Source: a virus
Virus record (IMG/VR): IMGVR_UViG_3300045988_110343
Location: 1 to 64,000 of that record
Length of the DNA: 64,000 nucleotides
Direction: 5' to 3' (one strand)
Shown here: positions 3,235-31,850 of the stretch, one piece after another
How the letters are laid out: the number at the start of each line of letters is the position of its first letter
Position numbering within the stretch: position 1 is the first letter of the stretch
Notes under the pieces: generated by a model
What the model was told of the DNA's origin: nothing
The model's input: the letters and a program-made list of their open reading frames with translations, nothing else
Databases searched by the model: none
Program-made: the position numbers and the translations under genes

Positions 3235-3372
3235 TGGAAACAACAGGAATCGAACCTGTGTCGGCAATTTATATGTGATGAAAATTAAATGTAAATAAAT
3301 AAAAATACTTATATGGAGGTAGAAAAATGAATGTTTATGTATTGCCTGCTCTACCAACTGAGCTATGTTTCC
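3235..3372 (-). tRNA. tRNA gene with a ~67-nt insertion in the anticodon loop (split or intron-containing tRNA, or a disrupted tRNA)
   Basis: On the minus strand: acceptor GGAAACA/TGTTTCC (7 bp); D-arm GCTC-AGTTGGTA-GAGC; anticodon stem GGCAA/TTGCC; T-arm ACAGG-TTCGATT-CCTGT; discriminator A. The anticodon stem halves are separated by 74 nt instead of 7. Confidence 0.6.
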
Positions 3373-4251: not shown

Positions 4252-5712
4252 TTAGAACTCACGGTAATCTGCTAGCTCTGGTGTTCCAAGATTTTCATTA
4301 TCTGTAGATTCTACTTCTTTATCTTCAGAAACAAAATCTTTTAGCATCTTTGCAAGATCAACACCTGTAGATCCTTTAACACCATCTGATACCTGATTCA
4401 CAACATTCATAATATCTTTTGTTAATTTTGTTGTATTTCCTTCTCCATACATAGTGATACTTCCTACGTTTCCTAATGGCGCAGCTGCATTTTTAACTGC
4501 TTCTGGGAACATCTGGCACATCATTTCTACGATAGAAGCTTTACCCATCTGCTTCATAGCTTCGGCTTTCTTTTCGATCGCTTCTGCTTCAGCAATACCT
4601 TTTGCTTTAATCGCCTCAGCTTCTGCTACACCCTTTGCACGAATACCTTCAGCTTCCTGCTCCATAGCATATTTTGTAGATTCAGCTTCTTTTTCTTTGG
4701 CATATTTGTTAGCTTCAGATTCTTTCTGTTTCTTGTATAAGTCTGCATCTGCTTTCTGCTGTGAAGCATATCTTTCAGCCTCTGCCTGCTTCTTGATCTG
4801 TGCATCTAATGTCTGCTCTGTTACCTCAACGTCTTTGCGTTTCAGTTCAATTTCCTTTTCCTGACACATAATATTAGCATCCGCAGTTACAACTTCAATT
4901 TCTTTACGTGATTTTTCTTCCTGGATCTTGTATGCTGCATCTGCCTCAGCTTTCTTTGCTTTTGAAATCTTTTCAAGTTCAGATTTTTTAATCTCCAGAT
5001 TGTTATTCTTTTCTGCAATCGCTGTTGCTGACTCTACCTTTGCATCATTTGCTTCTTTTTCAGCCATTGCTTTTGCTTTTTCAATATCTCTTTCGCTTTC
5101 AGCTCTGGAAATCGCAGCCTTCTTCTTGATTTTAACAACATTATCTACACCAAGATTTTCAATAACATCATTATCATCCATAAAATTCTGAACATTAAAA
5201 CTAATAATATCTAATCCCATTGCAGCAAGATCTGGCTTCGCATTTTCTGTAACAAGCTGTGCAAATTTCTGACGATCAGAAACCATTTCTTCGAGACTCA
5301 TCTTTCCAACGATCTCTCGCATATTACCTTCAAGGACTTCTCTTGCGACCTGTCCAATATTGCCTACTGGCTTATTTAAGAAGTTTTCTGCTGCAAGTTT
5401 TAATCTTTCTGGATTACTGCTAACCTTTACATTGACTGCTGCATCTACATTGATATTGATATAATCTGCTGTAGGCACAGAGCTTGATGTCTTAACATCA
5501 ATTGGAATTAACTCAAGATTAAGGTGATCTGCTTTTTCAAAGAATGGGATTTTTAACCCTGCCTTACCAATTAATGTCTTAGGTGTCTTTCTAAGTCCAG
5601 AAATAATATAAGCTTTATCTGGACTTGCTTTGACATAACCGCTACCGATAATAGCTCCTACGCCACCTACCGCAATAACCACTGGTACCACTGTTCCAAT
5701 TACTTCAATCAT
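4252..5712 (-). CDS. floT: flotillin (SPFH/band-7 domain, FloT/YuaG-like)
   Basis: 486 aa. N-terminal TM plus SPFH domain. Blocks REVLEGNMREIVGKMSLEEM..AAMGLDIISFNV and C-terminal MFPEAVKNAAAPLGNV match B. subtilis FloT. Central EA-rich coiled-coil repeats. Confidence 0.85.
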   Translation of the reverse strand: MIEVIGTVVPVVIAVGGVGAIIGSGYVKASPDKAYIISGLRKTPKTLIGKAGLKIPFFEKADHLNLELIPIDVKTSSSVPTADYININVDAAVNVKVSSNPERLKLAAENFLNKPVGNIGQVAREVLEGNMREIVGKMSLEEMVSDRQKFAQLVTENAKPDLAAMGLDIISFNVQNFMDDNDVIENLGVDNVVKIKKKAAISRAESERDIEKAKAMAEKEANDAKVESATAIAEKNNNLEIKKSELEKISKAKKAEADAAYKIQEEKSRKEIEVVTADANIMCQEKEIELKRKDVEVTEQTLDAQIKKQAEAERYASQQKADADLYKKQKESEANKYAKEKEAESTKYAMEQEAEGIRAKGVAEAEAIKAKGIAEAEAIEKKAEAMKQMGKASIVEMMCQMFPEAVKNAAAPLGNVGSITMYGEGNTTKLTKDIMNVVNQVSDGVKGSTGVDLAKMLKDFVSEDKEVESTDNENLGTPELADYREF

Positions 5713-10670: not shown

Positions 10671-11417
10671 TTATGAAATCCTAATTATCTGTTCGTAAAT
10701 TGCAATCGCATTATCTTCTGGGAAATTCTGGTTCACATGCATATGCCCAAAGAACCACTTTCTATATTCGACAGATTCTTTGATCTCTTGCAAATAATCC
10801 GTCAATATATCTGTTTTATATAGTCCTGCTCCGCCATCCATTTGTCTTAAAGCAGACGTGTACGGACTGTGTGTGATTATATAATCTACTTGTAGTCCAT
10901 TCTTCTTCAGATTCATTACACCTTCTACCATTTCTTCCTCTGAAGGAAGTTCTTCTTTCCACCATGATATATGATTAATGCGAAACATTTTATCGTAATC
11001 TCTATACCACTCATTAATTCTTGGATCGTTTTGCTCTAAAATCCCATCCTGAACATCGTGAGAACTAGCTCCACCAAACGTAAAGAATCTCTTTCCCTGG
11101 ATATCAAATATCTGCCCTCGCATGAGATGAAAAATAGAATCACGAATCTTATGAACCTTTCCGCCATTCCATTCTTCTACAGGATATTCGTACAGCCGAT
11201 CATAATTTTCATGGTTCCCACATACAAACAAAGTAGTAAATGGTTTGTTATCTAACCATTCCAGATTATATCGTTCTTCTTTTGTGTCATGCCACAGTCC
11301 AAAATCTCCGCAGATAATCACATAATCATCTTTGGTTAACTCAACTCCCTCTGGGAAAGAACGACTGTTTAATCGAGTCATCCAATCCCCATGTGTATCT
11401 CCTGTTACAAATATCAT
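10671..11417 (-). CDS. calcineurin-like metallophosphoesterase
   Basis: 248 aa. Motifs GDTHGD, GDFGLW, GNHE and GHMH. Confidence 0.8.
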   Translation of the reverse strand: MIFVTGDTHGDWMTRLNSRSFPEGVELTKDDYVIICGDFGLWHDTKEERYNLEWLDNKPFTTLFVCGNHENYDRLYEYPVEEWNGGKVHKIRDSIFHLMRGQIFDIQGKRFFTFGGASSHDVQDGILEQNDPRINEWYRDYDKMFRINHISWWKEELPSEEEMVEGVMNLKKNGLQVDYIITHSPYTSALRQMDGGAGLYKTDILTDYLQEIKESVEYRKWFFGHMHVNQNFPEDNAIAIYEQIIRIS

Positions 11418-12364
11418 ACAATTACTCCTTCCAATAACTCTTCTAATGCCTGCATATTATCTTCATGTACTCTATCATCTTGATCTGCATCATCTTTGCC
11501 AGTCTTATAAGCAAACTTGATAATCTCCATAACTCTATCATAACTCACATTAACAACATTTTCCTTCAATCCGTTAAAAGCCCCACTGATAATTTCCTTG
11601 TATGTCTGCGCAATATCATCAAACAATACATGAGTTTCTTCCTCTGTGATTGTTGCATACAGAAATGTCATTGCAGGGCTACTATGATTCAATAATCTCA
11701 TAAGTGTATACAATACGTTCTGATCATCTTTATGATCGACAAGTGTCCAATACACAAAGTTCTTTCGTAATGTATGCGTACCAATATTGTCCTCAATTCC
11801 AACTGCTTTAGCACCTTTTTTAACAAAATCCAAAGCATTTGCTTCAGTCATGTGTCCTGATCCAGACTTACATGTTCCAAAAACATAATCATCCATTGGC
11901 ACTTCGCCATCAATCTTGACATCATATTTAGTTCCTGCAACAGCTTCAAAGAAAATATCCACTGCTTCAGTTACCAAATCGTTAAAGTATACAGTTCTGA
12001 ATTTCTTTGTTTTCTTTTCCTGTTTACGAGTCTTATCGTCTAATAAATCGCCCCATTTGAGTCTAACAATATCAGAGATACGATATGCTGTATTGTTTCC
12101 AACTGTAACCAAAAGATTGTTTCTGGCAGCTACATATCGTTTGTACTCTGTGTACGATTTATCAATCTGGTCTCTAAAATATGCATTAAAGGCTGCAAAT
12201 TGTTTTCTGTCCTTGATCGGATACACTAAAGATGATACGCCTTTTTGTTTGTTAGATCGAGTCCATTTAGGACTTCCATCCTTACGTCTTTTAATCTTTG
12301 TTTCAGATTCTTCTGCGTTATTATTGTTTACTGTTTCAATAACTTCAAACTGTGTTGCTGCCAT
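11414..12364 (-). CDS. int: tyrosine-type site-specific recombinase / phage integrase
   Basis: 316 aa. Box motifs AYRISDIVRLKW (Arg), GTHTLRKNF (HxxR) and NHSSPAMTFLYA (catalytic Tyr). Confidence 0.8.
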   Translation of the reverse strand: MAATQFEVIETVNNNNAEESETKIKRRKDGSPKWTRSNKQKGVSSLVYPIKDRKQFAAFNAYFRDQIDKSYTEYKRYVAARNNLLVTVGNNTAYRISDIVRLKWGDLLDDKTRKQEKKTKKFRTVYFNDLVTEAVDIFFEAVAGTKYDVKIDGEVPMDDYVFGTCKSGSGHMTEANALDFVKKGAKAVGIEDNIGTHTLRKNFVYWTLVDHKDDQNVLYTLMRLLNHSSPAMTFLYATITEEETHVLFDDIAQTYKEIISGAFNGLKENVVNVSYDRVMEIIKFAYKTGKDDADQDDRVHEDNMQALEELLEGVIV

Positions 12365-15457: not shown

Positions 15458-16552
15458 CTATTCTTCTGAAATAATTTCCACCGCAGCTTCATAAAATCTG
15501 TTGTATAAAGTTGCATTAGTTTTAATAAGCTGAGATTTAGGAATGCCATGAGCATATTCATCCCAGTTAACGCCATTCTCTGTCATCTTAGTGTAGATTT
15601 TCCGATAAACAGACGTTCCACCTTTAGATTTATTTCCAATATGATTAGCATAGTTAGTAATCTTGATCTTCATTTCTTCCCAATCAGGCTGTGCGTTCTC
15701 TTTACGGAACTGTCGCAGAAGTTTTTCCAATGAATTAACTAACAGATCAGGATACTTGTCATAGCAAAGATCAATCGTTGGCACATTACCTCTCTCGCTA
15801 ATATTATACTTCTCTTTGTATTCTTTTCGATCCTGTTCCCACACAATCCCATATGTGTTAGTAAGATACCTATATGCCTCTCTAAGAATATCTCTAGTAG
15901 TGGTTCCTAGTTCGTCAGATTCTTTTAGAATATCATCAATGATAGAGTAGACATTAGATTTCCATTCATTAAGTTTGTATTCTGCGATAACACTTTCCGT
16001 ATCCACTACTGGAACATCTTTCGTAGGCTTTCCAATCTGCTTATACAATTCTTTCCGTTCGGCTTTCATCTCTTTAACAATGTCAGCCAACTGATTAAAT
16101 CCTTTAATAGTAACCTTGTACAGACGCTCATTGTTTCTTTCCATCTGCTTCATAAGTTCTGTCTGTTCTGTAAGAAACTGCTCTACTGTTGTTACAGGAG
16201 TTCCTGTTCTTAATTTTCCATGACGATAAGATTTAATAATATTCCATGCCCAATCCATAAAGGCATCTGCTTTTGGTTGACGACTTAATCTACATATCTC
16301 AAATACTCCAAGCTCATTATATACAACTGTTTCCCTATTCCTTCCATCAACCGTCCTCGTTTTGAGGACACTTGATTTTCCAACAAACCGATTCTTGTTC
16401 TTGTCGTGAATATTTTGGATTGCTTTTCTTGGATCTGCATATTCCAGTGCTTCTCCAATTTGATTTCTCGTCATCCAAATATCGTCCTCAGAACTATAAA
16501 AATCACACGATAAATCGTTAAAATTTTCCGTTTTTACTAACTGTAGGTTCAT
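15458..16552 (-). CDS. phage antirepressor (BRO-N / Ant-like)
   Basis: 364 aa. N-terminal BRO-like block FNDLSCDFYSSEDDIWMTRNQIGEAL. Confidence 0.55.
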   Translation of the reverse strand: MNLQLVKTENFNDLSCDFYSSEDDIWMTRNQIGEALEYADPRKAIQNIHDKNKNRFVGKSSVLKTRTVDGRNRETVVYNELGVFEICRLSRQPKADAFMDWAWNIIKSYRHGKLRTGTPVTTVEQFLTEQTELMKQMERNNERLYKVTIKGFNQLADIVKEMKAERKELYKQIGKPTKDVPVVDTESVIAEYKLNEWKSNVYSIIDDILKESDELGTTTRDILREAYRYLTNTYGIVWEQDRKEYKEKYNISERGNVPTIDLCYDKYPDLLVNSLEKLLRQFRKENAQPDWEEMKIKITNYANHIGNKSKGGTSVYRKIYTKMTENGVNWDEYAHGIPKSQLIKTNATLYNRFYEAAVEIISEE

Positions 16553-16874
16553 TCTTCATCTTCCTTTCTAAACTGTCTTATTTTTCTCTACACTCATTAT
16601 TTTTGTATAACTGTATTCCGTAAACCAATAGGAATAAAATCAACATTTAATTCCAACTATTAGTGTGCCAATCCTAATAGAAACCTATTCTATTCCTATT
16701 AGCTCTCTATGTAATCAACACCCTTTCCATTAACAATTATATGCTTAGTGAATCATTAGTTTGTGTATAATAAATTTGACAAAGAACCGACCTGCCAAAT
16801 CGGTTCCTGTCAAATATTTCCGTAAAATAAAAAGAACCTTCCGTTCGGTTCTTTGCCAAAATTATTATATGGAA

Positions 16875-17120
16875 TTAAATCAGCTGATAAATAAGCATTC
16901 CGAAAGCTACGATAACCCATAATGTCGTAATTGCTTTCATAGGCTTCATAATAGCTTCTAATATTTCCTCTAATACGTCTATATATTTGCGTAAATATAC
17001 CTTATTATGTTCACGATCAATTTTTCTTAGCGATAACCAAGCTAGGAAAACAATCACATATAACACAAAAGATATTCCGCAGAACTGTTCAAAGAAATGA
17101 ACAACCTGTTCTAATTCCAT
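16875..17120 (-). CDS. small membrane protein
   Basis: 81 aa with two hydrophobic helices. Confidence 0.45.
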   Translation of the reverse strand: MELEQVVHFFEQFCGISFVLYVIVFLAWLSLRKIDREHNKVYLRKYIDVLEEILEAIMKPMKAITTLWVIVAFGMLIYQLI

Positions 17121-18475
17121 ACTTCATCATCCTCATCTTCATTATCATATAAATTTTCCACTGGTGCTGTCTGTTGGAACATATCTGTTGGAGATAGGTT
17201 TCTAGCTTCACACATTGCACAAAAGACTTTCAGTACCTTATCCCATTCATATTCTTGAATCCACTGTAGAAATGGTTTCTTTCCACGTTTCTTAACATCA
17301 ATATGGTATTTGTATTGCAAGTTCTTATACAATTCATTCCACATAACAGAGAATTGTGTTCCTGTTACCGCAGCCAACTTCCTAATACCAGCGTTCATCT
17401 TATTGCGATCATCCCACGTCAAAATTTCCGCTGCTAATAACTTGTTATCATTCTGTAACTTCTGATTCTCTTCTTTGAGTTCTTTGTTCTGTGTTCGTAA
17501 ATCAGTTACCATAGCAAGCTTGACATCCTCAGAAAATGATGGGAAGTAGTGTTCAATGAACTGTGACTCTTTCCCAAAGTCAACTGCACCGCCTGTCTTA
17601 CGGATGTTTCTAAGGTATTCTTTGATCTGCTTCTTCATCTGCTTGGCAATCGGTTTACGTGACTGCATACACACTTCATAAAGCCCATCTTCTGTGAGGA
17701 ATAAGAATGGTGCTTTAGTTTTTCCGTTGGCGTCTAATTGACCTAAATTTTGAGTACCAACATTGTTGGTAGTTAAAATTTTAGTCTTGAATTTTTCCTC
17801 TTGATCAATTGTTTGTAGCATTACATTGACATTATACTTCCCAGTTCCAGTCTTTGCATAATCAATCCATTCTGCAACATCTCTTGCCAAGAATAACGGA
17901 TCTTCAATGCTTCTATACAGATCAATTCGTCTGCCTAAAATTTCCGTTGTGTCAACAAGCTTAACGCCTGCCTCTATCTGTTCTTGTTCTCTTCGTTCTT
18001 CCATCGTGATGTAATCATTGATAAAAACATAATGTCTAACGCTCTCAGCAAGGTTTGAAGTTTCCATCAGTAAAGACAATCTGATTAAGCATTTAAGAGT
18101 AAATACCTTAGCACCTTTATAGCCGAATGAGATATTTAATCCGTTCGGATACGTTACCACGATTCTTCCCTTCTGTTTTTCCGTTGTTGCGTTCTGACCA
18201 TCAATGATCTCTTGCACTGTCTTAACTTCCATTCCATCTGCTAAAAACTCTTTACGATACTTCGTACACAACCTCTTGACTTCATCAACATCTCCATCAA
18301 AGAATCGTGCTACCTGTTCCGTAGTAATATAATCTCGTCCAGGAAGCCACGGGATTGGCTTGATCGTAACCTGTTTCAAAAGCTCCGTGTTCTGCACCAA
18401 TTCATCTCTCTTTGCTTTATCCAAAATTGGATCGCAAGGAATTTCCATTTCGTTTAGATTCATAATTAATTCCAC
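17111..18475 (-). CDS. phage antirepressor, KilA-N/BRO-type
   Basis: 454 aa. KilA-N-like segment ITTEQVARFFDG and a central antirepressor-like region. Confidence 0.5.
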   Translation of the reverse strand: MELIMNLNEMEIPCDPILDKAKRDELVQNTELLKQVTIKPIPWLPGRDYITTEQVARFFDGDVDEVKRLCTKYRKEFLADGMEVKTVQEIIDGQNATTEKQKGRIVVTYPNGLNISFGYKGAKVFTLKCLIRLSLLMETSNLAESVRHYVFINDYITMEERREQEQIEAGVKLVDTTEILGRRIDLYRSIEDPLFLARDVAEWIDYAKTGTGKYNVNVMLQTIDQEEKFKTKILTTNNVGTQNLGQLDANGKTKAPFLFLTEDGLYEVCMQSRKPIAKQMKKQIKEYLRNIRKTGGAVDFGKESQFIEHYFPSFSEDVKLAMVTDLRTQNKELKEENQKLQNDNKLLAAEILTWDDRNKMNAGIRKLAAVTGTQFSVMWNELYKNLQYKYHIDVKKRGKKPFLQWIQEYEWDKVLKVFCAMCEARNLSPTDMFQQTAPVENLYDNEDEDDEVWN

Positions 18476-23060: not shown

Positions 23061-23090
23061 AGATTACTTTGTTTTATATTAAATTTTCCG

Positions 23091-23746: not shown

Positions 23747-24205
23747 CTATTCTTCATAATTTTCTAAATCCCAATGTTCTTTTAAAAGCTGGATCGCAAA
23801 CTCAGGATATCCCATAAAATAATAACTATCGTATACTGATTCTATCTGATCTTCATCCCAGCTTTCGTCATCATATCCATTTTCGTCTGCCCACGTTTCA
23901 AAATCCATTGCCGTTTTCTGAAAATCTTTAACCTTATTACTAATCCGTTGCAAGTCATTCTCTTCAATCGTGATTAAAGGTTTTCCATAATCATCGTAAA
24001 GATCTTCCCATAAGTCGTTGTTCCATTGTGACTTTGGCTCGTGTTGGATATAAATGTTTGTTAATCCATTTACATTCCAGCCCGTTGTAGCAACTAATTT
24101 TCCAGTTTCTTTCTCTACGCCATAAAACATTCCAGGTTTTACACAAAATCCACCATAAGAGGCGTGTCTGAAGTGTTCAGGTAAGATCAATTCTTTGAAC
24201 TCGTA
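23747..24205 (-). CDS. hypothetical protein
   Basis: Start moved to the Met with a GAAGGA RBS; the longer track ORF (to 24340) would read through the tRNA-like fragment. Confidence 0.45.
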   Translation of the reverse strand, partial: YEFKELILPEHFRHASYGGFCVKPGMFYGVEKETGKLVATTGWNVNGLTNIYIQHEPKSQWNNDLWEDLYDDYGKPLITIEENDLQRISNKVKDFQKTAMDFETWADENGYDDESWDEDQIESVYDSYYFMGYPEFAIQLLKEHWDLENYEE

Positions 24206-24284
24206 CATAATTTCCTTCTTTCTGCCTATCAGGACTTTAAATATTAATAGTTTTCCTTTATTATACACGATAATTTCCATCGTG

Positions 24285-24313
24285 AAAAGTAGCGAGGGCG
24301 GAATTGAACCGCC
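24285..24313 (-). other. tRNA 3'-half fragment (T-arm plus acceptor 3' strand); possible att-core remnant
   Basis: Minus strand reads CAGGCGG-TTCAATT-CCGCC-CTCGCTA. No matching 5' acceptor strand or anticodon arm lies upstream. Confidence 0.4.
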
Positions 24314-24339
24314 TGATAAAAGCACTCTTTTATCTACCA

Positions 24340-24445
24340 TACGCCACCGTTTTTCCGTTCCAATACGTCACTACTAGCAATCAGTAGTACAGTTTTTCCG
24401 TTCATTTAAAGTAACTATTAGCTTCAATAGTCCAGTATTTCCGTT
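24340..24445 (-). repeat. three tandem ~44-bp units: conserved AACGGAAA(A/T)AC motif followed by variable 6-7-bp hairpins
   Basis: Plus-strand TTTTCCGTT at 24342, 24386 and 24429. Each unit has a different perfect palindrome: ACTACT/AGTAGT, ACTATT/AATAGT, TACTCAT/ATGAGTA. Confidence 0.6.
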
Positions 24446-24483
24446 AGGGTGTATACTCATATCATCATGAGTAGTAAAAGCCT

Positions 24484-24741
24484 TTAATTGGCTATGTAAC
24501 TAAATAATTTTGACGGATCTTCTTTTAGAATTTCCGTCATGCCGTTAATTGCTTCTTCTTGCGTTTTGTACTTCCGAAAAATTCCGAATGTGTTCTTGAA
24601 TAGCAAGAAGTATTTATATCCATACAAGCCATCATCTTTCCCAGCGTTTGGAGGATTCTCTGTGAAGTACAGTGTGTTGTACTTTCGTTCAATGTGACAC
24701 GCTAATGATTCCATAGTTGTTCTGCGACTCATTCTTTCCAC
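24484..24741 (-). CDS. hypothetical protein
   Basis: 85 aa. Confidence 0.4.
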   Translation of the reverse strand: MERMSRRTTMESLACHIERKYNTLYFTENPPNAGKDDGLYGYKYFLLFKNTFGIFRKYKTQEEAINGMTEILKEDPSKLFSYIAN

Positions 24742-30080: not shown

Positions 30081-30225
30081 ACACTCTACCCTATCATCTT
30101 TTTTACATGGGTTATGGCGTTACCATGAGTTTTTATAGAAGTATTCTTTTCTTCTTTTATTCGGTTGTGTTTAACCGTTTTAAATAGGGATTTAAAAAGT
30201 CTGAATTGACTTTTTAGAAAAGATA

Positions 30226-30340
30226 TGGTATCCTAGAATTGTCTAGGTTCAGGGATACCGAAATCCCAAAGATGATATGGGCAGAAAGCCTTTTTTGATT
30301 AAGGCTGAACGCCTTTATCATCTTTTTTTATTTAATTTTT
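30226..30340 (+). ncRNA. small RNA candidate with its own promoter and terminator
   Basis: TTGACT-17-TATCCT promoter, then nested stems GGGAT/ATCCC, GATGATA/TATCATC and GCCTT/AAGGC, ending in TTTTTTTATTT. Confidence 0.35.
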
Positions 30341-30448
30341 GTAACCAGCATCTTAACTGGTGTCAAGTTAAGTGAGATTTTAAAACTCAACCGATCAATC
30401 AAGATGGTTTGTTTTGCTTCTCTTTTAACTTGTCTTTATTATATCATG

Positions 30449-30597
30449 ACTAGTATTGTTATGTCAATACTTTTTTCAATTTTTTTGATTTACTTTTTTG
30501 AGTAAATCGTGATATAATAATACCAATCGGATTGGACTTGTATGTCTTATCCTTTTGACAGTTATAATTATACAATACTAGTATTGTTATGTCAATA
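30449..30597 (+). promoter_or_regulatory. two 32-bp direct repeats carrying AGTATTG-N6-CAATACT palindromic operators
   Basis: Identical ACTAGTATTGTTATGTCAATACTTTTTTCAAT at 30449..30480 and 30566..30597. Copy 2 carries an extra CAATACT half-site. Upstream of the HTH gene. Confidence 0.6.
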
Positions 30598-30628
30598 CTT
30601 TTTTCAATAAATTTAGGAGTAATTTTAT

Positions 30629-30883
30629 ATGTATAATATTGTAAAAAATCAAGATGATCTTATCTTACAAATAAAGCACTATATGTTAGATAATAAGTTA
30701 AAGCAAAAAGACATAGTTGCCCGTACTGGACTATCTAAACAAACTATAAGCAATCTGTTAAACGGTAGGAGTAAAAACATGACACTAGACACTCTTTTTA
30801 TGCTTTTAAATGCTTTAGATTGTAATCTATCTGTATCTTTAAATAAGAATGATAATACAGATAACACCAGCAAAGATCAATAA
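30629..30883 (+). CDS. XRE/Cro-CI-type HTH transcriptional regulator
   Basis: 84 aa. HTH KQKDIVARTGLSKQTISNLLNGRS; RBS TAGGAGT. Confidence 0.7.
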   Translation: MYNIVKNQDDLILQIKHYMLDNKLKQKDIVARTGLSKQTISNLLNGRSKNMTLDTLFMLLNALDCNLSVSLNKNDNTDNTSKDQ

Positions 30884-30889
30884 TGCTGT

Positions 30890-31850
30890 TTACTCTGCCG
30901 TATGCACATATAAGCACTTATACAGTCGTTTAAATGCTTTAGAATGTAAGTATGCAAAGATCATTTGTATTATATAGAAGGAACACGTATATAATAGTAT
31001 TATTAATATAATATATAAGTATATGTGATATAGTACAATATGTAGCACTTATCTATGCCGTAGGTGTACTATTATATAGTATTATGTATATGTAGTATAT
31101 TTATTAATTGTGTCTTTAGGGTGCATGGTATATAGTTGTATATTATACTATTATATGTTATTATATAGTTATCATAGTTTGGATCTAGTTTTGCGTGGTA
31201 GTATGAGATATACTATCATGTTATATTTGTATATGTATTTATTTATGTATGATAGCTTGATCTTGTATGATTGCCATATATTAATTTGTTTAGTTTATAT
31301 TTTAATTTGTGTATTTGTTGCAAGTGCTGGAAGTCTGCCAAACATCGAACACTTGTTTGCTTAGTAGTGTATCATGGTTTTGCTGTGCTGTCAAGTGGTA
31401 TAGATAAAAGCTATGGGTGATGGTTTGGTATAGAGTGAAGTTATAGGTGGGTTTGTGGTGGTTTGTATTGAGTGATAGAGAAAATATTGTTTTGCTGGTG
31501 TTATGTGGCGTGAAGTTTTATTTTGTGTTGATGGCGTGGATAGACTATCCAACACATTATGTAAAAGTGTTGGATAATAGACAAGTGTTGTGTAGATAGT
31601 CGCAAAGTAGTAGTCCTATTTTGGAATACTACGACACGTCGTAAACCATATTATATTATACAGCATCTGATACACTATCATGTAGTTTTGGATACTATGT
31701 GGAAATAGTTGGAAATTATCTGTACTCCTGATCCTGATCTGCCTATAAATTATTTACAATAATTGTCAAAATTCATTTGATAAAAATATAGTATTTCAAA
31801 TAGATTTATCCAGTATTTACCATAGTTTTTATATATTTATAACTATAGTA
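30890..31850. other. non-coding zone, plus strand strongly G+T+A-rich and almost C-free
   Basis: Direct reading shows long stretches without C (gtatatgt..., tggtttgtggtggtttg...). Only a Y/L/M-rich spurious ORF is present. Confidence 0.6.

What the first reader, a model, noticed from the sequence alone, without database searches (positions are those of the whole stretch)
24280..24445. Tandem motif-plus-hairpin units and a tRNA 3'-half fragment; AACGGAAA motif recurs across the early region
Read on the minus strand, three consecutive ~44-bp units each contain AACGGAAA(A/T)AC followed 3 nt later by a different perfect hairpin. The third motif is followed instead by a tRNA T-arm plus acceptor fragment (GGCGG-TTCAATT-CCGCC-CTCGCTA).

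The same motif (plus-strand TTTCCGT[TA]A) occurs at 16612, 16825, 16843, 23080 and 24530, always intergenic. At 23080 it is followed by a terminator hairpin, and at 16840 it sits inside a terminator loop.

This may be a promoter or processing element for phage small RNAs, a regulator binding site, or recombination sites. The tRNA fragment may mark an old attachment site.
Basis: seen in the sequence. Interest (0 to 1): 0.6.

Follow-up and report, generated by a model that had tools for sequence, protein, structure and literature searches.

The report
Conserved tRNA-like RNA with hairpin leader
The spacer between two early genes of an uncultured Clostridium-phage-c-st-like phage encodes a conserved structured RNA, made of two hairpin units with an invariant AACGGAA motif followed by a complete anticodon-less tRNA-like fold, which is not a leftover tRNA fragment or a genome-wide motif and whose role is inferred, not shown.

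Summary
The core observation holds. On the minus strand, AACGGAAA(A/T)AC occurs three times exactly 43 nt apart (24445, 24402, 24359), and the first two copies are followed by hairpins.

The "tRNA 3'-half fragment" is misread. It is a self-contained 61-nt tRNA-like fold (24288-24348): a 7-bp acceptor-type stem, a D-loop-like UAUGGUA, an 8-bp hairpin and a canonical T-arm. About 60 related IMG/VR phage contigs carry it, 99% of cells in the whole proposed structure pair, and the T-stem shows compensatory changes. ARAGORN and Rfam do not call it, and it has no anticodon loop.

The "motif across the early region, always intergenic" claim fails. Most other copies lie inside ORFs, enrichment fades under strand-aware models, and covariance models find no further unit or tRNA-like copy in the window.

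The attachment-site idea has no support: no host-genome match, and the recombinase gene lies 12 kb away.

Relatives show three allelic states: long element, short element, or short-gene-long. Recombination between paralogous copies explains the variable T-arm.

Best reading (inferred): an intercistronic RNA module whose tRNA-like end recruits RNase P and RNase Z to cut the early transcript and release a small tRNA-like RNA. The AACGGAA motifs would be protein or RNase recognition sites.

The parts
24484..24741 (-). Upstream early ORF (85 aa, no Pfam or PHROG match). Its TAA stop at 24484-24486 opens the 275-nt spacer.
   Evidence: Conserved in relatives at a mean of 84.5% nt identity.
24454..24473 (-). 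Hairpin H0, TACTCAT-gatgat-ATGAGTA. There is no U-tract, so it is not a terminator.
   Evidence: Two haplotypes (ACUCAU.../GUCUG...) both fold, with 5 pairs changed on both sides, effectively one event.
24435..24445 (-). Motif copy 1, AACGGAAATAC. It is predicted single-stranded.
   Evidence: AACGGAA is invariant in all 29 distinct relatives.
24413..24432 (-). Hairpin H1 of unit 1, GACUAUU-gaagcu-AAUAGUU.
   Evidence: Invariant in 29 sequences. The paralogue comparison with H2 shows U-A to C-G and G-U to U-G exchanges.
24392..24402 (-). Motif copy 2, AACGGAAAAAC. In many relatives it reads AACGGAAUGAC.
24369..24389 (-). Hairpin H2 of unit 2, UACUACU-gauugcu-AGUAGUG.
   Evidence: The top pair is U-G in 16 sequences, U-A in 12 and C-G in 1. 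This is tolerated in RNA on this strand but gives an imperfect DNA palindrome.
24349..24359 (-). Motif copy 3, AACGGAAAAAC. It directly abuts the 5' end of the tRNA-like element, at the inferred RNase P site between 24349 and 24348.
   Evidence: The cleavage site is inferred, not shown.
24288..24348 (-). 61-nt tRNA-like element. Its parts are the acceptor-type 5' strand GGUGGCG (24342-24348), the D-loop-like UAUGGUA (24335-24341), an 8-bp hairpin with AGUG loop (24315-24334), the T-arm (A)GGCGG-UUCAAUU-CCGCC(C) (24296-24314), one unpaired U (24295), and the 3' strand CGCUACU (24288-24294).
   Evidence: - MFE is -22.7 kcal/mol with z -3.0.
- 99% of cells pair across the whole proposed structure, and the T-stem shows 3-4 pair types per position.
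- RNAalifold recovers the fold independently.
- Covariance model R1 scores 91 bits and finds a single copy in the window.
- ARAGORN does not call it, and the best Rfam hit is a weak tRNA-Sec match at 22 bits.
24260..24288 (-). Sigma-70-type promoter TTTTCA-17-TATAAT for the downstream gene. The perfect inverted repeat CACGAT-N7-ATCGTG (24266-24284) sits between the -35 and -10 boxes. The -35 box overlaps the last base of the tRNA-like element.
   Evidence: Best promoter match in 22.5-26 kb. The inverted repeat is unique in the window and nearly invariant in relatives.
23747..24208 (-). Downstream early ORF (153 aa, very acidic C-terminal half, no family match), with RBS AGAAGGAAA at 24211-24219.

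Best explanation
**What it is.** The 275-nt spacer between two early genes encodes, on the minus strand, a conserved structured non-coding RNA module. It is transcribed as part of the early polycistronic RNA.

**The 3' domain (24288-24348)** is a tRNA-derived, non-decoding tRNA-like element. It has an acceptor-type stem, a D-loop-like GG segment and a canonical T-arm, which are the parts that make the tRNA "top half" and elbow. A dispensable 8-bp hairpin sits where the anticodon arm would be.

**The 5' domain** is hairpin H0 followed by two homologous 43-nt units. Each unit is a single-stranded invariant AACGGAA followed by an AU-rich hairpin. A third AACGGAA motif directly abuts the tRNA-like 5' end.

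**Inferred mechanism.**
1. Host RNase P recognises the acceptor/T-arm stack and cuts right after motif 3.
2. RNase Z (or 3' trimming) plus the CCA-adding enzyme finish the 3' end, where no CCA is encoded and a U-rich tail follows.
3. This punctuates the transcript. The upstream mRNA gains a hairpin-protected 3' tail carrying the AACGGAA motifs, and a stable tRNA-like RNA of about 61 nt is released.
4. The downstream gene is expressed from its own operator-bearing promoter, which starts at the last base of the element.
5. The invariant AACGGAA copies are most likely recognition sites for an RNA-binding protein or an endoribonuclease.

**Shown versus inferred.** Shown: the fold, its conservation and covariation, its strand, its uniqueness in the window, and the allelic states. 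Inferred: transcription through the region, RNase P and RNase Z cleavage, and any role of the motif.
For: **Structure**
- The tRNA-like fold is the MFE and centroid structure, with z -3.0.
- RNAalifold recovers it independently.
- In 29 distinct relatives, 99.1% of cells in the whole proposed structure pair. T-stem positions show CG, GC, GU and AU. Acceptor-stem changes are only G-C to G-U on the 3' strand, which is neutral in RNA of this strand and a mismatch on the other.

**tRNA-like features**
- The T-loop is UUCRAUU with a closing G-C pair, and there is a UGGUA segment.
- The next-best hits of covariance model R1 are the phage's genuine tRNAs.

**Not a fragment**
- In genomes where another gene sits upstream, the element starts cleanly at (A)GUGGCG without the motif units.
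- The alternative acceptor register with GUAGUGA fails: 86% paired, with two pairs broken in half of the sequences.

**Not coding**
- Indels of 1 and 14 nt occur among relatives.

**Context**
- There is no terminator between the upstream genes and the element; the only one is at 23060-23035.
- The units are more conserved (94.5%) than the flanking genes (85-89%).
- AACGGAA is invariant in all 87 motif instances.
- RNase P measures the acceptor/T-stem stack from the elbow and cleaves non-tRNA tRNA-like substrates (PMC4919913).
- The phage encodes its own beta-CASP RNase next to its tRNA cluster.
Against: - There are no transcript or cleavage data.
- The 3' strand carries 1-2 unpaired nucleotides between the T-stem and the acceptor stem, which a canonical RNase P or RNase Z substrate lacks.
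- All relatives are close, so the compensatory changes reduce to a few haplotypes. Recombination between paralogous copies can import whole T-arms, which weakens covariation as proof of selection.
- Some T-stems carry mismatches (L015, L033, L007).
- H1 never varies and H2 varies at one pair only, so the RNA nature of the unit hairpins rests on G-U pairs and on context.
- The long copy in short-gene-long genomes lacks the motif leader, so the motif is not required for the element.
- No function can be tied to either flanking gene.
Confidence: 0.42

Rival explanations
1. Decaying tRNA gene and recombination scar. The element would be a tRNA pseudogene that lost its D-stem and anticodon arm. The 43-nt units and partial copies would be debris of unequal recombination. 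The locus would matter only as a hot spot where gene cassettes are gained and lost.
For: - Three allelic states exist: long copy only, short copy only, and short-219-aa gene-long.
- Alleles are mosaic. L004 combines a long-copy 5' part with the short copy's TTCGATTCCTATCCCGTCAC.
- The tail of unit 2, GUGACGUAUUGG, resembles the element's 5' end, GUGGCGUAUGG.
- The T-arm plus 3' strand is the most variable segment, at 81% identity.
Against: - Pairing is kept in 96-99% of cells, with several fully compensated T-stems.
- The 5' half and the units are more conserved than the neighbouring protein genes.
- AACGGAA is invariant in all copies.
- Distant homologues of the inserted gene in other phages are not flanked by such elements.
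Confidence: 0.17
2. DNA-level element. The three AACGGAA(A)AC direct repeats on a 43-bp (four-turn) spacing, together with the inverted repeats, would be binding sites for a phage regulator or initiator acting on double-stranded DNA. They would be iterons, a centromere, or upstream activating sites for the adjacent promoter.
For: - The spacing is regular at 43-44 bp, with perfect 6-bp inverted repeats.
- An operator-like inverted repeat lies in the adjacent promoter.
- The closest deposited phage is c-st, which I recall from memory to be kept as a plasmid prophage; plasmid prophages use repeat centromeres.
Against: - The motif occurs on one strand only. The unit hairpins contain G-U pairs, and H2 is an imperfect palindrome in 16 of 29 sequences.
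- The units are contiguous with a proven RNA fold on the same strand.
- No Rep, Par or Tub gene was found next to the region.
- GC-skew and the strand switch put a likely origin near 30-32 kb instead.
Confidence: 0.1
3. RNA sponge or pseudo-antitoxin. The tandem units would form a small RNA that titrates an RNA-binding protein. Candidates are a CsrA-type A(N)GGA binder or a host type III toxin-antitoxin or Abi endoribonuclease, as with pseudo-ToxI of phage PhiTE. The tRNA-like element would serve only as the processing handle.
For: - Three invariant single-stranded ACGGA cores lie between hairpins.
- The 43-nt period is in the range of the CptI and TenpI repeats, reported as 45 and 50 nt (PMC12373285).
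- The location is in a phage early region.
Against: - There are only two units, and they are diverged (32 of 44 aligned positions identical), whereas antitoxin repeats are near-identical.
- No toxin-like neighbour was found in Pfam or PADLOC.
- There is no Rfam ToxI or abiF-motif hit.
- No arrays of these hairpins exist in JGI metagenomes.
- The GGA motifs are not displayed in hairpin loops.
Confidence: 0.1
4. Remnant attachment site: the 3' part of a host tRNA gene carried in attP or left by an old integration event.
For: - The T-arm plus acceptor-like sequence looks like the 3' end of a tRNA gene.
- A tyrosine recombinase is encoded in the window.
Against: - The 25-mer has no exact match in 185,579 species-representative genomes.
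- A search with the element's conserved 5' part gave only a chance coding hit.
- The 3' strand co-varies with, and pairs to, an adjacent 5' strand.
- The recombinase gene is 12 kb away.
Confidence: 0.03

Closest known systems
Canonical tRNA genes, including the phage's own cluster at 41.8-43.3 kb
   Same: A 7-bp acceptor-type stem, a 5-6-bp T-stem with a UUCRAUU loop and a closing G-C pair, a D-loop-like UGGUA, and no encoded CCA. The phage's tRNAs are the next-best hits of the element's covariance model.
   Different: It has no D-stem. It has no anticodon arm: an 8-bp stem with a 4-nt loop stands in its place, or nothing at all in the short copies. There are 1-2 unpaired nucleotides at the T/acceptor junction. 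ARAGORN and the Rfam tRNA model do not call it.
tRNA-like domain of tmRNA
   Same: The architecture is an acceptor stem, a D-loop without a D-stem, and a T-arm, with both RNA ends in the acceptor stem. A helix leaves the junction where the anticodon arm would be.
   Different: There is no tag reading frame and there are no pseudoknots. A G-U pair at position 3 is not conserved. ARAGORN finds no tmRNA. The element is 61 nt long rather than about 350.
tRNA-like processing handles on longer transcripts: MALAT1/mascRNA, MEN-beta, and the tRNA-hairpin TMER transcripts of MHV68. RNase P substrates of phages P1/P7 (C4 RNA) and phi80 (M3 RNA) are recalled from memory.
   Same: A tRNA-like fold embedded in a longer transcript next to hairpins, which would let RNase P or RNase Z define RNA ends (PMC4919913).
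   Different: There is no sequence or family relationship, and no Rfam hit to mascRNA or C4. The mascRNA, MEN-beta and TMER examples are eukaryotic or herpesviral. Cleavage here is untested.
Bacterial Y RNA (YrlA) tRNA-like module
   Same: A non-decoding mimic of the tRNA T-arm, D-loop and acceptor region, encoded by bacteria and some phages (PMC4201824, listed).
   Different: From memory, in YrlA the RNA ends lie in a Ro60-binding helix, not in the acceptor stem. No Ro60 gene was seen here, and there is no Rfam hit.
Type III toxin-antitoxin antitoxin repeats (ToxI, CptI, abiF-motif RNA) and phage pseudo-ToxI
   Same: Tandem structured RNA units of 34-50 nt with purine-rich single-stranded boundaries (PMC4627078, PMC12373285). 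Phage pseudo-ToxI sitting in a phage intergenic region is recalled from memory.
   Different: There are two diverged units, no adjacent toxin, no evidence of a pseudoknot, no sequence similarity to CptI, and no Rfam hit.

Membership tests
tRNA | Detected as a cloverleaf by tRNA finders or the Rfam tRNA model | tested here: not met
   ARAGORN finds 10 tRNAs elsewhere and none here. There is no Rfam hit at gathering score. The best hit is tRNA-Sec at 22.1 bits against a gathering score of 47, in a register that covariation rejects.
tRNA | T-arm: a 5-bp stem, a 7-nt UUCRANN loop and a closing G53-C61 pair | tested here: met
   GGCGG-UUCAAUU-CCGCC. The closing pair is G-C in 26 of 29 sequences and G-U in 3. 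Stem positions covary.
tRNA | 7-bp acceptor stem joining the 5' and 3' ends | tested here: met
   GGUGGCG/CGCUACU is 99% paired, with only G-C to G-U changes.
tRNA | Anticodon arm with a 7-nt loop, and a D-stem | tested here: not met
   An 8-bp stem with the 4-nt loop AGUG cannot give a 7-nt loop, and it is absent from the short copies. No D-stem is present.
tmRNA | Tag-peptide reading frame and pseudoknots, a conserved G3-U70 pair, and detection by ARAGORN | tested here: not met
   ARAGORN finds no tmRNA. The element is 61 nt. G-U occurs at stem pairs 4 or 5 in about half of the sequences and is not fixed at pair 3.
RNase P / RNase Z substrate (tRNA-like) | Coaxial acceptor plus T-stem stack of about 12 bp capped by a T-loop/D-loop elbow | tested here: inconclusive
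   There are 7 plus 5-6 bp with a T-loop and a GG segment, but 1-2 unpaired nucleotides interrupt the 3' strand.
RNase P / RNase Z substrate (tRNA-like) | Actual cleavage at the 5' and 3' ends of the fold | not testable with these tools
   Needs RNA-seq or RACE, or in vitro cleavage.
Prophage attachment site / tRNA gene fragment | Sequence identity with the 3' end of a host tRNA gene, next to an integrase gene | tested here: not met
   The 25-mer has 0 matches in 185,579 genomes. The tyrosine recombinase is at 11414-12364, 12 kb away.
Type III toxin-antitoxin antitoxin RNA | Near-identical tandem repeats upstream of an endoribonuclease toxin gene | tested here: not met
   The two units share 32 of 44 aligned positions. 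Neighbours have no Pfam, PHROG or PADLOC match. No Rfam match to a type III antitoxin or abiF-motif family appears in the E<=10 scan.
CsrB/Rsm-type protein sponge | Multiple A(N)GGA motifs, mostly in hairpin loops, that bind CsrA | tested here: inconclusive
   Three invariant ACGGA cores are present, but in linkers rather than loops. Binding is not testable here.
CRISPR repeat, mini-array or RNA anti-CRISPR | The same repeat occurring in arrays with spacers | tested here: not met
   No array of the H1 or H2 hairpin sequence occurs in JGI metagenome contigs. The period of 43 nt is too short for repeat plus spacer.
Intrinsic terminator | GC-rich hairpin followed by a U-tract | tested here: not met
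   The only terminator-like site in 22.5-26 kb is 23060-23035.

The most novel reading that the evidence does not exclude
The phage makes a minimal "top-half" tRNA: acceptor stem, T-arm and elbow, with no anticodon. After RNase P and RNase Z processing and CCA addition, it would act as a translation-neutral decoy for host factors that act on the tRNA acceptor end or elbow. Candidates include abortive-infection toxins that modify or cleave tRNA 3' ends. Diversification of the T-arm and 3' strand among relatives would then reflect an arms race, and the AACGGAA-hairpin leader would be a second, co-released effector RNA.
Probability: 0.08. Interest if true: 0.8.

Novelty: new variant of a known kind. 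Interest (0 to 1): 0.5.

Why it matters
Non-decoding tRNA mimics are known from tmRNA, Y RNAs, plant-virus 3' ends and mammalian lncRNAs. They are barely described for DNA phages. This element is absent from Rfam 15 and from all 50,697 deposited phage records searched.

It is conserved, with structural covariation, in a clade of roughly 160-kb uncultured phages related to Clostridium phage c-st. It is therefore a clean candidate for a new phage RNA family.

If RNase P and RNase Z do process it, it would be a bacterial-virus example of tRNA-like transcript punctuation. It would also give a handle on how large Firmicute phages organise early transcripts.

If the small RNA has a function of its own, such as acting as a decoy or sponge, it would be a new type of phage counter-measure.

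The locus also shows how paralogous structured-RNA copies can drive gene gain and loss.

Tried and rejected
1. **Genome-wide motif.** Exact and 1-mismatch searches, ORF mapping and strand-aware Markov expectations show the dispersed AACGGAAA copies are mostly coding and composition-driven. The unit covariance model finds no further unit.
2. **AACGGAA x3 pattern in IMG/VR.** The scan returned only the same clade plus unrelated coding or simple repeats.
3. **tRNA-Sec-like reading with GUAGUGA as the 5' acceptor strand.** Rejected by pair counts, and by genomes where the element lacks that upstream sequence.
4. **Attachment-site origin.** Two genome-collection scans gave nothing but a chance coding hit in Myroides.
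5. **Known RNA family.** An Rfam scan at E<=10 gave only noise: tRNA-Sec at 22 bits, MIR390, snoR101 and GOLLD at 10.7 bits.
6. **Similarity in deposited phages.** Megablast, blastn and tblastn of the flanking gene gave no meaningful match. c-st shares the terminase, but tblastn with the nearby clamp gene finds no c-st match.
7. **CRISPR-like or antitoxin-like arrays of the hairpins in metagenomes.** None found.
8. **Cassette element.** Homologues of the inserted 219-aa gene in other phages (42-54% identity) carry no tRNA-like flanks or tRNAs.
9. **Small ORF across the units.** A 28-codon frame exists in the window, but its ATG is missing in the other H0 haplotype and indels break it (read).
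10. **Function from neighbours.** Pfam, PHROGs and PADLOC gave nothing for the ten closest ORFs or for the inserted gene.
11. **Literature.** Full-text searches found no description of such a phage element.

Full report
**Context**

The window is a novel phage with GC about 33%. Genes lie on the minus strand up to about 30 kb and on the plus strand afterwards. A cluster of 10 tRNA genes sits at 41.8-43.3 kb.

No deposited phage matches at the DNA level. The large terminase is 58% identical to that of Clostridium phage c-st. Sigma-70-type promoters and strong Shine-Dalgarno sites fit a Firmicute host.

The finding lies in the 275-nt spacer between an 85-aa ORF (24484-24741) and a 153-aa ORF (23747-24208). 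Both are on the minus strand, and neither has a Pfam, PHROG or PADLOC match.

**Check of the observation**

On the minus strand, AACGGAAA(A/T)AC occurs at 24435-24445, 24392-24402 and 24349-24359, exactly 43 nt apart. The first two copies are followed after 3 nt by hairpins H1 (24413-24432) and H2 (24369-24389). Units 1 and 2 are homologous along their whole length, while the third shares only the motif.

The claim that the motif recurs "always intergenic" does not hold:
- Of the eight other exact copies, six are inside ORFs, one is a ribosome-binding site and one overlaps a stop codon.
- The whole-window shuffle expects 2.2 copies against 11 observed.
- All copies lie on the purine-rich coding strand. 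There, Markov orders 3-4 expect 3.3-5.5, and the 7-mer is not enriched outside the tandem.
- A covariance model of motif plus hairpin (R2) finds only the two units in 64 kb.

**What follows the third motif**

It is not a tRNA 3' half. The sequence is GGUGGCG-UAUGGUA-GAUAAAAG-AGUG-CUUUUAUC-A-GGCGG-UUCAAUU-CCGCC-CU-CGCUACU (24348 down to 24288). It folds as a three-way junction with these parts:
- a 7-bp acceptor-type stem;
- an 8-bp hairpin;
- a canonical T-arm;
- a D-loop-like GG segment.

The fold is both the MFE and the centroid structure at -22.7 kcal/mol, with z -3.0. ARAGORN and Rfam do not call it. The only Rfam hit is a weak tRNA-Sec match (22 bits, E 0.08) that uses a different 5' strand.

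**Comparative evidence**

The 153-aa protein retrieved 37 IMG/VR loci from phage contigs of up to about 170 kb. A DNA pattern search retrieved more. I aligned 29 distinct versions of the spacer.
- My structure pairs in 99.1% of cells.
- T-stem positions show up to four pair types (CG, GC, GU, AU).
- The acceptor stem changes only between G-C and G-U, always on the 3' strand. This is neutral for an RNA of this strand and not for the opposite one.
- RNAalifold recovers all helices independently.
- The rival acceptor register suggested by Rfam is broken at two pairs in half of the sequences.
- Indels of 1 and 14 nt rule out coding.
- The unit region is 94.5% identical to the window on average, against 85-89% for the flanking genes and 81% for the T-arm plus 3' strand.
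- AACGGAA is invariant in every copy of every sequence.

**Allelic states**

Relatives show three arrangements:
1. A long element only, as in the window.
2. A short element without the 8-bp hairpin, in four contigs.
3. Units, short element, a 219-aa gene of unknown function, long element, then the promoter, in about ten contigs.

Alleles such as L004 join the long 5' part to the short copy's T-arm and 3' strand. Recombination between paralogous copies therefore explains much of the apparent hypervariability. This also weakens covariation as a proof of selection.

Homologues of the inserted gene in other phages have no such flanks. Covariance model R1 finds a single copy in the window, and the next-best hits are the genuine tRNAs at 14-17 bits.

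**Surroundings**

Directly after the element comes the best promoter match of the region, TTTTCA-17-TATAAT at 24288-24260. It carries a perfect, clade-invariant inverted repeat, CACGAT-N7-ATCGTG, between the two boxes. No terminator lies between the upstream genes and the element; the only one is at 23060-23035. The module should therefore be transcribed with the upstream genes.

**Interpretation**

RNase P recognises the acceptor/T-stem stack and the elbow rather than sequence. It also cleaves non-tRNA substrates that present tRNA-like folds (PMC4919913).

The most economical reading is an intercistronic processing module:
1. RNase P would cut after motif 3.
2. 3' processing and CCA addition would finish a tRNA-like RNA of about 61 nt.
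3. The upstream mRNA would keep a hairpin-rich tail bearing the AACGGAA motifs.
4. Those motifs would be protein or RNase recognition sites.

All of these steps are inferred.

Rivals are:
- a decaying tRNA and recombination scar;
- DNA-level repeats for a regulator;
- an RNA sponge or pseudo-antitoxin (type III antitoxin repeats described in PMC4627078 and PMC12373285);
- an old attachment site.

The attachment-site idea fails the tests I could run:
- The 25-mer has no match in 185,579 species genomes.
- The 5'-part pattern gave only a chance coding hit.
- The recombinase gene is 12 kb away.

No arrays of the unit hairpins exist in JGI metagenomes.

**Verdict**

This is a real, conserved, previously undescribed tRNA-like RNA element with a structured, motif-bearing leader. 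It is specific, so far, to one clade of uncultured phages. Function remains inferred.

Noticed in passing
window 3235-3372 (-): A tRNA(CAU)-like gene interrupted by an AT-rich insertion of about 64 nt at the 37/38 position of the anticodon loop. Rfam tRNA scores it 46 bits, and ARAGORN does not call it. The insertion is kept, with small indels, in 47 of the 48 clade copies found. One copy has a much longer, unrelated insertion at the same site.
   Followed up: partly
window 43561-45000 (+): A 479-aa beta-CASP / metallo-beta-lactamase ribonuclease (Beta-Casp 6.8e-25, RMMBL RNA-specificity domain 1.5e-7) is encoded directly after the tRNA cluster. It is a phage RNase J/CPSF-like enzyme that could take part in RNA processing.
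   Followed up: no
window 24266-24284: A perfect inverted repeat, CACGAT-N7-ATCGTG, lies between the -35 and -10 boxes of the promoter of the 153-aa gene. It is unique in the window and nearly invariant in the clade, so it looks like an operator.
   Followed up: partly
window 30100-31300: The strand-switch region has the lowest GC (0.30), short AT-rich tandem repeats (31129-31250), and two spots, 30452-30474 and 30580-30602, that gave equal weak scores (8.7 bits) in the covariance-model scan and may be one repeated 23-nt sequence. It is a candidate replication origin or divergent promoter region.
   Followed up: no
window 11414-12364 (-), 4252-5712 (-), 15458-16552 (-), 17111-18475 (-), 40695-41462 (+): A tyrosine recombinase, an SPFH/flotillin-like protein and three Bro-N/anti-repressor-like proteins are encoded in the window. 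From memory, c-st, the closest deposited relative, is maintained as a plasmid prophage, and a recombinase would fit that lifestyle.
   Followed up: no
L001 5196-5855 (inserted gene in about 10 related contigs): A 219-aa gene with no family match sits between the short and long tRNA-like copies. The sequence after the short copy looks like a deletion derivative of the promoter that follows the long copy, so the duplicated module was tRNA-like element plus promoter.
   Followed up: partly
window 16553-16874 (-): A second long intergenic spacer in the early region has a terminator-like hairpin whose loop reads GAACGGAA, followed by a long imperfect inverted repeat (TTGACAGGAACCGA...TCGGTTCTTTGTCAA). 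It shows no homology to the 43-nt units.
   Followed up: partly
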